Below, piece by piece: positions 42,025-56,006 of a DNA stretch of 64,000 nucleotides. The notes under the pieces are model-generated. The model was not told the origin of the DNA. It saw nothing but the letters and a program-made list of their open reading frames with translations, and did no database searches. Position 1 is the first letter of the stretch. Every line of letters starts with the position of its first letter. Both the position numbers and the translations under genes were made by a program. The DNA is from Balanoglossus misakiensis (Eukaryota; Animalia; Hemichordata): the NCBI GenBank assembly GCA_040954595.2, contig CM082590.2, forward strand, positions 11,346,655 through 11,410,654, written 5' to 3'.

Positions 42025-45000
42025 ATGACAACTCAAGAAAGATGTCAGAAGACACAGTTGATGGATATCGTGTGGCAGCCATTCATTATCCAAGGAAAAC
42101 AATTCTTCATCAAATACCTCATCAACAATGATAGTTATGAATTACTGATGACAGATACTGTATGTGTATGGTATGAAAACTGTGATTGTAAAAGTTTGAA
42201 GAAAAGATCAAAGGTAAGACTGAAGTAAGACTTAAAGTCACTCATATGTGTAAAGCAGGAAAAGCATGGTCGAGATGGCAACTAAGTTACACAAGCAAAG
42301 TAAAAAAGCACCATATTTCTTAATCTGAATGCATGGTGTTTGGTAATGTTAAAATATTGTCCAAATATAGAGAACCTTAATTTTGAAAACAGATGATGTT
42401 TATGTGTATATTTGTCTGTCTATCTGCCTGCTTGCCTGTCTTTCTGTTGCAACTTACATGGCACAAACTATAATTCTCCAAATATATTTGTACTTTTCTA
42501 CAGAAATTAAACCCATCAGTAGAAGCACCAGTTAGAAGATTATTGGAGCACCTACAGAATAATGTTGAGAATCAGCAAAGAGATTGTACTTATGCAATTG
42601 AAGAGGAATCACCTGATACTCTTGTTTTGTGCATAACATCAAAGTTGGCAGAAGGAGTACCTTTCACCTGGAAGTTTAAGTGTCAAGTTGCTGATTCTAA
42701 TATGGTATGTTTAGCACAAATTTGATGATTGTCTAGGTATGCACATAGGTGCTATTGGTCAAAACTTAGTTTGCAAGTGAATGAATGAATGTATACACCC
42801 ATACAGTTAAAAGGATTATGTCTTTAAGTATATCCACATGGTAGCACACTTTATTGCATGGCCACACAAACAGTGGAAATCAATGATTGGCTATATCTCA
42901 ATTCTCCATGGTAATAGTGGCTAAATTTGCATGACTGTATACCTTTATTAGCAGATCTGTCAATATATTCTCATCACCATTTTTGTTTCTTTATTTCAGA
43001 CATCATCTCATTTGATTGTTCCTTTACTCACAATGGTTTCTGAATTGCAACGACGACAAGTACACTTACAGAAACTATTGAACAAAAAAGATGCTGAAAT
43101 TGAAGATTACAAACTGAATGGTGCTAAAGTCTCAAGAAGTGAGTATAGGATTAATTCGGAATCTACAAATTAATGAGTTCTTGAAATTTAAATTAGATGA
43201 CAACCCAGATGCAGTGTGTGGTTGTCACAGTCCATAGCCTTACATGTAGAATGTTGAGAAAACATAATATCATATATTATAAGCTCCCTTTTGGATTATT
43301 TACATGTATTTTACATGTCTTATATTTACATGTCTTTGTATTTTAGGAGTCCAGATATCCATGACACATTACTTACATGTATATATGCCACCTTTGTGTG
43401 TACCAGTTAGAATCATACAGTGACACAGCATCTTGACACTTTTCATATTTTACACTTTGACAGAGCATCTGGAAACTGTACCATTTGACGAATCCCTGTT
43501 TCAGAGTGAAATGAGCAAATCTCAGGTAAGAGCATATAGTTTTTCTTTTATCTTGTCGGATAAACAACAAAAGATTACAGTGTGTATAGCTTCATTTTCT
43601 TCACATGCCGGCGATTCGCGACCTAGTTTTGAGTGACCGTGTTGGACAGAGATGCTGGGCTGGTGTCGTGTCGTGTGGCAGGGTTTTGAAGCAAATGGAT
43701 TTGACAAGTCTCGGGAAAGACAAGCCGTAATGTTACAGACATAAAACTGTGTCTGTCCATGAAACGTATTGACAACGTTTAAGCGAAAGGAAGTTCCAAC
43801 GGGTGTTGGCCATCAATTTGTCGTGTACCTCGGCAGTCGCGTTAGATGTAGAACCCAATCTGGACAATGTGACCCCTTTTTTGATGTGATATCCACCGAA
43901 GACTTTTAACGCTCATTTTGAGTGAGAACCACCTGTTGATCATAAAGTAAGTACATAGATGGACCACTTTTCAAATTTGTAATGAGACATGTGTTTGTTG
44001 AGAATTTGGATTGGCAATGTGTGCATTTATTTGTAAATTGTCCCACAGATCATAGTCCCTGCTATCCTGAGGGGCTGTGCATGGATGTAGTCTGGGGTGA
44101 CTTTATAAGTATTGGGTTCTTTATTACTGTTATCTGCCTTTACTGAACCAGACATGTTAATTTTGATAGTTAGAATTATATCATTCAGCATCACACAACA
44201 GAAACAATGCCTACACTGTATCCCTGGCACAAGGACGACTAAGCAATTGTTGGCAATCACTTAATTGATGCTAACCTTTGTGGGAAGGAGTGCAAAGGGT
44301 AACACTTCACAGAGACTCATGGACACACATAACAGCAGACAGGGCAGTTAACATGAAGTGGTTGATATGCAGGAAATGTCTGATTGGCCTGATTGCTGGC
44401 TGTGATGAAAGGTCCATCATCATTTAGCTACTATTAGCTGCTGTATAATACACTCTGACAAGATCTAAAACATCAGGAGAAATGATGATGAGATCTTCTA
44501 CACCATCCTTTTATAAAGCGATGGACATGCTTATAGCTACCTTCATGGAACCTGCAGAATGCACACTGTTGTCCACACCACAACCTTGAAGGTGATTGGT
44601 GCACTCAATGACAACAGATGTATCACTTACAATATGCAGATTCATGTGACTTTGCAAACTCACCCAATCAGTTACCTTATTAATCATGTTTGGTATTCAA
44701 ATATTTTCCTGACTTCAATGGCATTGAATTGGTCAGTTCTTGAACAAAATAAAAAATCATATCTTGACACATATGCATGTCATGTGTTTGTCAGTGATTG
44801 TTTTATGATTGATCCAATGCAGTATCAAGTTAGAGTAGCTTGTCAGGTTCGCATGAGTGTTTCATTAAAAAAATTTCATACCTTTTTCATACAAGTGTTA
44901 GACAGTGTAATATGATTGAACTATCAGTACAACTGTAAAGTGTAACATAAGCTTACCAGTTCTGATCAACAAGGAACACATTGTCTTCAGCGTTATTTGT

Positions 45001-46260
45001 GACTCAGGCATAGTTGTGTAAAGGCTTGCAATCTCGCTCTTGCCTGTGCAGACCACAGAAAATAGGATGCAGCCCTGTTGCCATTTTGTTGATTAAACAG
45101 CGCCCTCACTCATCCAAAATGTTTCATTGCAGAGTTTTGAGAAAGAAGTCAAGGAACATGGCAGAAGACCATTTAATGCCATGGGACAAGATTTGTATCA
45201 ACAAATAATGATGAAACGTTCATGGCTGGAAGAAAAGAAAGAATCTGGTATGTTACCTTAGCAACATTTCTATTCAGTAAACTGTTTCCTTGGTTACAGA
45301 GATGAGTCAATGTCTGTGCATACCTTTTCATGATGATGCAAGTTAGCGGTTGTTGTTGTTGTTGTTATTGTTGACATGGACTTACTCTGTTGATTGGGAA
45401 GCCATTTCAATTTTCAGCTGCCCTTTTGTGCATTGTATATAAACTTACTGTAAATTTAAATCCAGGGTAGCTGTTGAAAGCTGTATCATTATAGGATGTC
45501 TTGAATTCATCAAACTTTGTTGACCAAGGGAACTAGTTTATTGTTACGTTACTCAACAAACACAATTTCTTTATGCCAAGACACATTTACAAGAAATAAA
45601 GTAGCATTTGGCAAGAGGCAACATTTCGGTTAACCAACTGTTGATCACATGATGCTTAATTGAGTCACTGACAGTGACCTCAAATTCCTTCATTAAAGTT
45701 TGTCAAGTATCACACATGAGCATGACATCAAGGGTGAACACCCAGTTTTCTTCAACTTCAAAAAGACTTCTCACATATTTACATACAAGATAGTAAAATG
45801 TACATCATCAGAAATACCTGCTTGAATCATTCTTCAATTTATTATTTAGGTGAAGGAAAAACAGTTGTTTCACCTGAAAAAACAGCAAGTACTTCTGAAG
45901 GACATTCACCAACAAGGCCATCCCCAAACATATCCCCAGCGAAATCCTTGTCACCTGTCAAGGTAAGATTTCATTAACGTTCAGCCATTCTCAATTTCTT
46001 GCTCTCAGAAAATTCAAACATGACTCGAAATCAAACAGCATTGTTATCAATGGATACTCACACCTTGGATGTCAATTGTAGTGCCACAGTCTAAGGTCCA
46101 AATGTGTGGCACGCACTACAAATTAAACAGGTCCCTTGTTTCTCCTTTCTCTCTGCAGGACACAGAGTTGATGCGGAGAAAGGCACTAGAAAAACGACTA
46201 GCTCAAGAAGAAAGTAAATTAGCAACACAGAAAAAGAAAACGAAAAAGGGGTTATTCTGA
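42025..46260 (+). CDS. NHEJ1: Non-homologous end-joining factor 1 (XLF/Cernunnos), 306 aa, 7 coding exons
   Basis: Exons 42025-42213, 42504-42704, 43000-43138, 43464-43525, 45133-45247, 45850-45962, 46159-46260 (921 nt). Motifs: YELLMTDTVCVWYE, KKLNPSVEAP, SKLAEGVPFTWKFKC, HLIVPLLTM..ELQRR, KKDAEIEDYK.NGAKVSR.HLET.PFDE, and a C-terminal Ku-binding motif KKKTKKGLF. Confidence 0.93.
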
Positions 46261-55560: not shown

Positions 55561-55706
55561 GGTGTGTCGTTTATCATTGGAAATTATGGTGTGCGGACGG
55601 AACACACTGACGACGCAATAAGACTATGTCTGTATCACACGGCAGTGCAGTCGAGATGAAATAAGATCTTGTCTTGTCAGTTTCTTCATCCAATAACGGG
55701 CAAACT

Positions 55707-56006
55707 ATGAAATTCCAACACAGTCTCCCAGTTACGTGGATGCTGTTGTGTCTTCTTTTACCCGGTTGTCTGCCTTGTGGTCCAGGTAGGAATTCACGCA
55801 AACCGTCGGGACCTAGCAAATTAACAGCTTTCCACTATAAACAGTATACCCCTAAAATATCGGAAGATACGGTCGGTGCTAGCGGTGCACCGGAAGGTAG
55901 AATAACGAGAGACGACGACAGATTTAAGGAGTTGACACCAAATCATAACTCTGACATCATTTTCAAGGATGAAGAGGGCACTGGGGCTGATCGTTTAATG
56001 ACACAG
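55707..56006 (+). CDS. hh: Hedgehog protein, coding exon 1 (signal peptide and start of the Hh-N signalling domain); the gene continues beyond the window
   Basis: [80 protein letters not shown], ending at the conserved phase-0 donor CAG|gtgagt. I did not find exon 2 (RCK.KLN) in the remaining 8 kb. Confidence 0.97.

What the first reader, a model, noticed from the sequence alone, without database searches (positions are those of the whole stretch)
42025..56006. NHEJ1 lies directly upstream of hedgehog on the same strand, as in vertebrate NHEJ1-IHH: a candidate ancient genomic regulatory block
Seen: NHEJ1 and hedgehog are adjacent and co-oriented, with a 9.4-kb gene-free gap in an otherwise gene-dense window. 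Known: mammalian NHEJ1 sits immediately upstream of IHH in the same orientation and carries IHH enhancers in its large intron. Inference: the pairing predates the vertebrate genome duplications and may be maintained by hedgehog cis-elements inside the bystander gene. The linkage may already be reported in comparative studies of Hh loci.
Basis: partly seen in the sequence, partly recalled or inferred. Interest (0 to 1): 0.8.

Follow-up and report, generated by a model that had tools for sequence, protein, structure and literature searches.

The report
Ancient NHEJ1-hedgehog pair in acorn worm
A DNA-repair gene (NHEJ1) sits directly in front of the hedgehog signalling gene in what is likely an acorn worm, an ancient pairing already published for other invertebrates in 2012; its longest intron lies at the position of the vertebrate intron that carries Indian hedgehog enhancers and holds a short CpG-rich patch that may be a hedgehog enhancer but is untested.

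Summary
A seven-exon NHEJ1/XLF gene (42025-46260, 306 aa, no stops) ends 9,446 bases before hedgehog exon 1 (55707-56006) on the same strand, and no gene was found between them. The closest relatives are from the acorn worm Ptychodera flava. One detail is new here. NHEJ1's longest intron (1,607 bp) lies within one codon of, and in the same phase as, the human intron that holds IHH enhancers. It carries a single-copy patch of about 350 bp with 20 CpGs inside a CpG-depleted gene body (0 of 5,000 permutations reach this). That makes it a candidate regulatory element, but there is no motif enrichment, no conservation test and no expression or contact data. Most hedgehog regulatory DNA probably lies in the CpG-rich domain that starts near 47.5 kb, outside NHEJ1. 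Verdict: new instance of a known pair, with one cheap test target.

The parts
42025..46260 (+). NHEJ1/XLF coding span, seven exons, 306 aa
   Evidence: Spliced frame without stops; Pfam XLF and XLF_CC; 59% to P. flava NHEJ1-like; only PDB hits are human NHEJ1 chains
43526..45132 (+). NHEJ1 coding intron 4, 1,607 bp, phase 0; positional counterpart of the human intron after c.588 that holds IHH enhancers
   Evidence: Follows model residue 197 = P0121 residue 201 = human residue 197, read from the alignment; the human enhancer variant is c.588+18131, so that intron follows codon 196; longest of 41 modelled introns
43557..43911 (.). CpG-rich single-copy patch in intron 4; candidate cis-regulatory element
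   Evidence: 20 CpG in 400 bp, observed/expected 1.07 against a gene median of 0.19; 0 of 5,000 permutations reach 20; single-contig depth at 80% likeness; no Pfam, Rfam, fold or motif signal
46261..47505 (+). CpG-depleted tail behind the NHEJ1 stop (likely 3' UTR and read-through; A[A/T]TAAA at 46553, 46564, 46581, 46615, 47400)
   Evidence: CpG o/e 0.35; poly(A) words; no RNA data
47506..64000 (.). CpG-retaining domain covering most of the gap, hh exon 1 and the visible part of hh intron 1; inferred germline-unmethylated hedgehog regulatory domain
   Evidence: Change point 47506 (47438-47830), log-likelihood gain 53.8 against at most 9.3 in 200 permutations; o/e 0.79-0.93
53181..54154 (.). 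High-copy interspersed repeat in the gap, likely a non-autonomous transposon
   Evidence: Summed contig depth 8,000-52,000 against about 60-170 in single-copy bins, loose ends at both termini; 15-nt hairpin at 53203-53236 and 12-nt subterminal inverted arms
54660..54898 (.). (ATAC)n microsatellite, 59.5 copies, about 0.8 kb before the hh start codon
55707..56006 (+). hedgehog coding exon 1 (signal-peptide-like leader, CGPGR start of the signalling domain)
56007..64000 (+). hedgehog intron 1 (at least 7,994 bp; exon 2 lies beyond the window)
   Evidence: No second hedgehog exon by tblastn or motif scan

Best explanation
NHEJ1 lies directly upstream of hedgehog on the same strand, and this is likely the acorn-worm copy of the published, pre-bilaterian Nhej1-Hh gene pair, likely kept together because hedgehog's regulatory DNA reaches into NHEJ1. 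Shown: both genes, their order and spacing, the match of NHEJ1's longest intron to the vertebrate enhancer intron, and the CpG pattern. Inferred: NHEJ1 is a broadly transcribed gene with a methylated body; hedgehog sits in an unmethylated domain that starts about 1.2 kb behind the NHEJ1 stop and holds most of its enhancers (gap and long introns); a 350-bp patch in NHEJ1 intron 4 escapes germline methylation because it is bound as a regulatory element and would loop about 12 kb to the hedgehog promoter, so that a break between the genes would cost hedgehog an input. My odds: orthologous ancient linkage 0.95; linkage held at least in part by hedgehog elements inside NHEJ1 0.5; the patch is a regulatory element of some kind 0.5; the patch acts on hedgehog 0.25.
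For: Gene identity and order. Published linkage in four invertebrate groups and conserved non-coding regions in the two long introns of amphioxus Nhej1 (PMC3364491). Neighbouring accession numbers on contigs of identical length in P. flava (XP_070550385 and 387), Lytechinus pictus (XP_054751054 and 055) and L. variegatus (XP_041458379-80 and 386). Functional IHH enhancers in the human, mouse and chicken intron after c.588 (PMC10425348). Same phase and position within one codon for this gene's longest intron. CpG patch: 20 in 400 bp, against 8 CpG in all 1,708 bp of the other five NHEJ1 introns and at most 8 per 400 bp in 32 non-first introns of three neighbours; not a repeat at 80% likeness. 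In amphioxus nearly all 5mC is in gene bodies, and regulatory elements marked by local loss of methylation lie mostly inside bodies of widely expressed genes (PMC6292497).
Against: All NHEJ1 introns are short (196-1,607 bp), whereas bystander genes are marked by very long introns (human data, PMC3514665); GPD1 in this window also has an internal intron of 1,158 bp. No enrichment of 13 recalled transcription-factor words in the patch (2 sites in all, at chance level). The second run shows 2 substitutions inside the patch, so no sign of extra constraint, on very few sites. Only 2 of the 32 control introns are 400 bp or longer, so the control is thin. First introns of GPD1 and STT3B reach 19 and 13 CpG per 400 bp, so the patch looks just as much like an internal promoter. 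The amphioxus intragenic elements were linked to their host genes, not to neighbours, and the dynamic ones are methylated in embryos. Priapulus has the two genes on different scaffolds. Vertebrate and amphioxus Hh loci share no non-coding sequence.
Confidence: 0.5

Rival explanations
1. The linkage is ancient but passive here: NHEJ1 holds no hedgehog element and simply borders the hedgehog regulatory domain. The pair survives because breaks inside that domain are harmful and the free stretch between the NHEJ1 3' end and the first hedgehog element is only about a kilobase, a small target in slowly rearranging genomes.
For: Sharp CpG boundary at about 47.5 kb separates an NHEJ1-type from a hedgehog-type domain. 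NHEJ1 introns are short and, apart from one patch, as CpG-poor as those of STT3B, GPD1 and TAX1BP1. The pair was lost at Shh and Dhh and is not on one scaffold in Priapulus. The one hemichordate hh enhancer named in a review I read (skSBE1, PMC5831802 passages) lies, as I recall from Yao et al. 2016 (not read), in an hh intron rather than in NHEJ1.
Against: Retention from cnidarians to mammals is long for a passive pair; vertebrate enhancers in NHEJ1 are functional; the longest intron here is the same intron.
Confidence: 0.35
2. The CpG patch is real but unrelated to hedgehog: a single-copy remnant of a recent insertion whose CpGs have not yet decayed, an internal or antisense promoter, or an enhancer of NHEJ1 itself. 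(This concerns the patch only and can hold together with either reading of the linkage.)
For: No motif enrichment; CpG density like promoter-proximal first introns; an insertion would also explain why this intron is the longest; amphioxus intragenic elements were assigned to host genes.
Against: No second copy at 80% likeness in two runs of the same sample; no terminal inverted repeats or long direct repeats in 43500-44000; no coding, Rfam or fold signal.
Confidence: 0.6
3. The two genes are co-regulated by shared elements in the gap.
For: Adjacent genes, short distance.
Against: Tandem, not head-to-head, order, whereas co-regulated conserved pairs are mostly 5'-5' (PMC3514665); opposite CpG signatures; a DNA-repair gene and a patterned morphogen are not expected to share a pattern (general knowledge).
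Confidence: 0.04

Closest known systems
Ancestral Nhej1-Hh linkage and proposed old Hedgehog regulatory block (Irimia et al. 2012, PMC3364491)
   Same: Same two genes, Nhej1 as upstream neighbour; long hh intron 1 (11.5 kb in B. lanceolatum, at least 8.0 kb here); proposal that Nhej1 introns hold hh elements.
   Different: [quoted passage not shown] 5A not visible). Gap 9.4 kb here against 27 kb in B. belcheri. Amphioxus Nhej1 has two long introns; here the longest is 1.6 kb.
Vertebrate NHEJ1-IHH block with the intronic enhancer cluster i1-i9 (Will et al. 2017, not read, as described in PMC10425348)
   Same: Same order and orientation (chicken deletion runs from NHEJ1 intron 4 through its last exons to behind the IHH 3' UTR, PMC7096424); the longest intron is at the same position and phase.
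   Different: The human intron is more than 18 kb long with several tested enhancers; here 1.6 kb with one untested patch; sequence likeness to vertebrate enhancers not tested.
Intragenic hypomethylated regulatory elements of amphioxus (Marletaz et al. 2018, PMC6292497)
   Same: A local island of low inferred methylation inside the methylated body of a widely expressed gene.
   Different: Those were measured by bisulfite and ATAC, were adult-specific and assigned to host genes; this patch is inferred from CpG counts alone, which reflect the germ line.
Shh-Lmbr1-Rnf32 regulatory block
   Same: Hedgehog gene with upstream bystanders.
   Different: A vertebrate novelty that replaced Nhej1; neither gene is seen in this window.

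Membership tests
NHEJ1/XLF (Cernunnos) | XLF head domain followed by the XLF coiled coil | tested here: met
   PF09302 on exons 1 and 2, PF21928 on exon 3, all above cut-off; human NHEJ1 the only PDB hit
NHEJ1/XLF (Cernunnos) | Intact full-length reading frame like that of orthologues | tested here: met
   306 aa, no stop; aligned to the last residue with P0121; splicing itself not seen, no RNA holder listed
Hedgehog | Leader, then CGPGR and the HH_signal domain, first intron after ...LMTQ | tested here: met
   that this intron position is the usual one is recalled
Hedgehog | C-terminal Hint/Hog autoprocessing domain | not testable with these tools
   Exons 2 and 3 lie beyond the window; no genome held
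Genomic regulatory block (bystander type) | A developmental regulator next to a non-developmental gene | tested here: met
Genomic regulatory block (bystander type) | Microsynteny conserved across distant taxa | tested here: met
   Proxy by accession order and contig length: 3 of 4 species with both genes seen; published for four invertebrate groups
Genomic regulatory block (bystander type) | Bystander with unusually long introns | tested here: inconclusive
   Intron 4 is the longest of 41 modelled introns (median of 32 non-first controls 227 bp) but only 1,607 bp, close to 1,525, 1,388 and 1,158 bp in neighbours
Genomic regulatory block (bystander type) | Conserved non-coding elements in bystander introns | not testable with these tools
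   No DNA of a related animal could be fetched; only runs of one sample hold the stretch; no look-alike stretch in earlier windows
Genomic regulatory block (bystander type) | Elements in the bystander act on the target gene (contact, reporter, deletion) | not testable with these tools
   Shown for vertebrate IHH only
Genomic regulatory block (bystander type) | Bystander and target differ in expression | not testable with these tools
   No RNA holder listed; opposite CpG signatures are indirect

The most novel reading that the evidence does not exclude
The 350-bp CpG-rich patch is a hedgehog enhancer in the very intron that carries the IHH enhancer cluster of vertebrates. One NHEJ1 intron would then have hosted hedgehog enhancers since the deuterostome ancestor, with the position kept while the sequence turned over, and this acorn worm would hold the whole block in miniature: one 1.6-kb intron, one element, 12 kb from the promoter.
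Probability: 0.2. Interest if true: 0.65.

Novelty: new member of a known kind. Interest (0 to 1): 0.3.

Why it matters
The linkage itself adds one lineage to a published result. What remains open since 2012 is whether any invertebrate Nhej1 really carries hedgehog enhancers, which is what would make the pair a regulatory block and not just old neighbours. This locus shrinks that question to one short intron and one 350-bp candidate, in an animal group with existing ATAC-seq and reporter assays (P. flava, PMC11618098, passages). A positive result would date the IHH bystander arrangement, where human variants cause eye defects, to before chordates.

Tried and rejected
No whole genome is held, so hh exons 2-3 and further neighbours could not be read. 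No RNA holder listed: no evidence on expression or splicing either way; the three listed runs are one sample, one of them possibly the source of the window. A homologue search with NHEJ1 exon 2 found nothing; exon 3 found 1 protein, which was then used as the full-length query (552 hits at E 0.001, 150 listed). Only 22 of those NHEJ1 representatives and 8 hedgehog clusters could be named, and just 4 species had both genes in view; no spiralian or cnidarian pair could be checked. Haplotype differences as a measure of constraint: too few sites, and stretches without cover in run X2 are not evidence. Patch as structured RNA: rejected (z = 0.46; best Rfam match in the intron E 0.63 and outside the patch). 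Patch as hidden exon: 9 of 22 frames overlapping intron 4 scanned, none hit Pfam. Patch as high-copy repeat: rejected at 80% likeness. SBE1-like words (Otx, Tead, homeodomain) absent from the patch. A gene in the gap: not found. The gap repeat has no match among phage records (a poor test). My first exon model was off by one base at two donors and was corrected. Hand models of STT3B and TAX1BP1 still slip frame (23 and 4 internal stops) and GPD1 lacks its last exon, so a few control intron ends are off by some bases. Supplements of PMC3514665 could not be read; its pair lists may include Nhej1-Hh. Figures 5A and S4 of PMC3364491 are pictures and were not seen.
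Full report
1. Observation. Seven GT-AG exons on the + strand splice to 306 residues without a stop. Exons 1 and 2 match the XLF head domain and exon 3 the XLF coiled coil, all above Pfam's cut-offs. The product aligns to its last residue with the NHEJ1-like protein of Ptychodera flava (P0121; 191/322 identical, E 4e-126). Hedgehog exon 1 is 55707-56006 on the same strand (HH_signal, E 2e-26). Its best hits are P. flava (77%) and Glandiceps talaboti (60%) hedgehog, so the animal is likely an acorn worm related to, but distinct from, P. 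flava (inference). No second hedgehog exon lies in the remaining 7,994 bases. The stop-to-start gap is 9,446 bases. Of 63 open frames of 50 aa or more overlapping it, 54 were scanned and none reached a Pfam cut-off; no tRNA or Rfam family was found. It is the longest intergenic stretch measured, but the others are 2.4 to 6.4 kb. It contains a high-copy repeat of 974 bp and a 239-bp microsatellite.

2. Prior art. A search for nhej1, hedgehog, synteny and amphioxus returned one paper: Irimia et al. 2012, PMC3364491. I read parts 1-3 of 6 of its text, passages, and the legends of its supplement; figures were not visible. A search for nhej1, hedgehog and hemichordate found 0 papers; nhej1, hedgehog and synten- found 4, of which, by title and start of abstract, only Irimia 2012 concerns invertebrates. 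The library lacks most subscription papers, so a hemichordate mention elsewhere is not excluded.

3. Own check of the linkage. No animal genome could be read, so I used a proxy: RefSeq accession order and contig length as printed by the look-ups. P. flava: hh XP_070550385.1 and NHEJ1 XP_070550387.1, both on a contig of 853,158 bases. Lytechinus pictus: NHEJ1 XP_054751054 and hh XP_054751055, both 82,431,108. L. variegatus: NHEJ1 XP_041458379-80 and hh XP_041458386, both 75,777,787. Priapulus caudatus: hh XP_014665414 on 508,027 and NHEJ1 XP_014662210/235 on 576,419, that is different scaffolds of about half a megabase. So 3 of the 4 species in which I saw both genes look linked. The proxy gives neither orientation nor intervening genes, and a scaffold break could hide linkage in Priapulus.

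4. Which intron carries the vertebrate enhancers, and what is there here. The human IHH enhancer variant is NHEJ1 c.588+18131, inside enhancer i8 of a cluster in that intron; the element drives reporter expression in chicken eye (PMC10425348; passages and section 7 part 1). That intron follows codon 196 in phase 0. The window's coding intron 4 follows residue 197 in phase 0, which maps to P0121 residue 201 and, by eye on the alignment with human XLF, to human residue 197: one codon off, at the end of an exon that is 62 bases long here, where alignment confidence falls. The first three introns map to human residues 59, 130 and 176+1 by the same route; that human NHEJ1 has introns there, and that all six phases (0,0,1,0,1,0) agree, is recalled, not checked. 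I take intron 4 to be the same intron. It is 1,607 bp long, the longest of 41 introns modelled in NHEJ1, STT3B, GPD1 and TAX1BP1; the 32 non-first introns of the three neighbours have a median of 227 bp and a maximum of 1,158 bp, and two first introns reach 1,388 and 1,525 bp. So it is the right intron and the longest, but it is not large.

5. CpG pattern. The bodies of STT3B, TAX1BP1, GPD1 and NHEJ1 have CpG observed/expected 0.40, 0.46, 0.45 and 0.30. From 47,506 (range 47,438-47,830) to the window's end it is 0.79-0.93; the change point gains 53.8 log-likelihood units against at most 9.3 in 200 permutations. In amphioxus nearly all methylation is in gene bodies and rises with expression (PMC6292497, passages), so I read NHEJ1 as a methylated housekeeping gene and hedgehog as lying in an unmethylated domain of at least 16.5 kb that begins 1.2 kb behind the NHEJ1 stop (inference from composition; no methylation data). 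One exception lies inside NHEJ1: 20 CpGs between 43,557 and 43,911, at the 5' end of intron 4 (o/e 1.07 in 400 bp; the rest of the intron 0.14). None of 5,000 permutations within the gene reached 20 (maximum 17). This is a post-hoc observation, and the permutation assumes independent sites. The other five NHEJ1 introns hold 8 CpGs in 1,708 bp; no non-first control intron has more than 8 in 400 bp, but only 2 of the 32 are that long; the first introns of GPD1 and STT3B have 19 and 13. The patch is covered by one contig per run at 80% likeness, while a repeat in intron 3 draws depths in the thousands. It shows no Pfam, Rfam or folding signal, no enrichment of 13 recalled factor words, and 2 substitutions in run X2.

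6. Mechanism. Best reading (0.5): an ancient bystander block. Hedgehog draws most of its input from the CpG-rich gap and its long introns, and at least one input from NHEJ1 intron 4, for which the patch is the candidate; that would penalise any break between the genes. Shown: genes, order, intron match, CpG pattern. Inferred: methylation state, element status, target, selection on linkage. Main rival (0.35): NHEJ1 only borders the hedgehog domain, and linkage persists because the breakable stretch is short. For the patch alone, a hedgehog-independent origin (young single-copy insertion, internal promoter, NHEJ1's own enhancer) is more likely than not (0.6). Co-regulation is unlikely: such conserved pairs are mostly head-to-head (PMC3514665, passages).

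7. Verdict. Real, orthologous and ordinary as a linkage: a new lineage for a pair described in 2012. As a regulatory block it meets the pairing and synteny features, is inconclusive on intron length, and could not be tested for conserved elements, contacts or expression. The addition is a short, testable candidate in the intron that vertebrates use. Interest 0.3; 0.65 if the patch proves to be a hedgehog enhancer (probability about 0.2). Other papers seen: PMC5831802, PMC11618098 and PMC7096424, passages only; Will 2017, Klopocki 2011 and Yao 2016 not read. Earlier notes of this scan held nothing on this pair.

Noticed in passing
window 53181-54154: High-copy repeat about 1.5 kb before the hh start codon, with a GC-rich hairpin (53203-53236) near one end and short subterminal inverted arms; the layout resembles a non-autonomous Helentron (HINE), a resemblance I recall and did not test.
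   Followed up: partly
window 49432-49768 and 52573-52749: Contigs of run X2 skip 335 and 175 bases here (the second also in X1): likely length polymorphisms in the gap, which would mark dispensable stretches of the hh upstream region.
   Followed up: no
window 41000-42024: A splice-acceptor-like AG about 12 bases before the NHEJ1 start codon and a CpG-rich stretch at 40.4-41.5 kb suggest a non-coding first exon, as I recall for human NHEJ1; coding intron 4 would then be intron 5 in both.
   Followed up: no
window 33890-34850: TAX1BP1/CALCOCO-like gene (SKICH domain, C-terminal zinc fingers) has partly duplicated coiled-coil exons: 34240-34344 shares its start with 34610-34849 and its end with the exon ending at 33977.
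   Followed up: partly
window 11670-18053: A second CpG-rich stretch of about 6.4 kb (o/e 0.96 for 12-18 kb) between the divergent GPD1 and an intronless bZIP gene (18054-18851); it holds a 204-aa frame at 12443-13054 (-) with no Pfam match above cut-off.
   Followed up: partly
window 43187-43264: Short high-copy repeat in NHEJ1 intron 3, with an inverted look-alike at 53094-53115.
   Followed up: no
window 50350-50420 and 53784-53813: Short palindromic repeats; the first draws very high contig depth with variable palindromic inserts.
   Followed up: no
window 1000-3200 (-), 6900-11670 (-), 22879-30342 (+): Other genes of the window: a methyltransferase, glycerol-3-phosphate dehydrogenase and STT3 (read as STT3B from recall). 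Whether any is a conserved neighbour of hh was not checked.
   Followed up: partly
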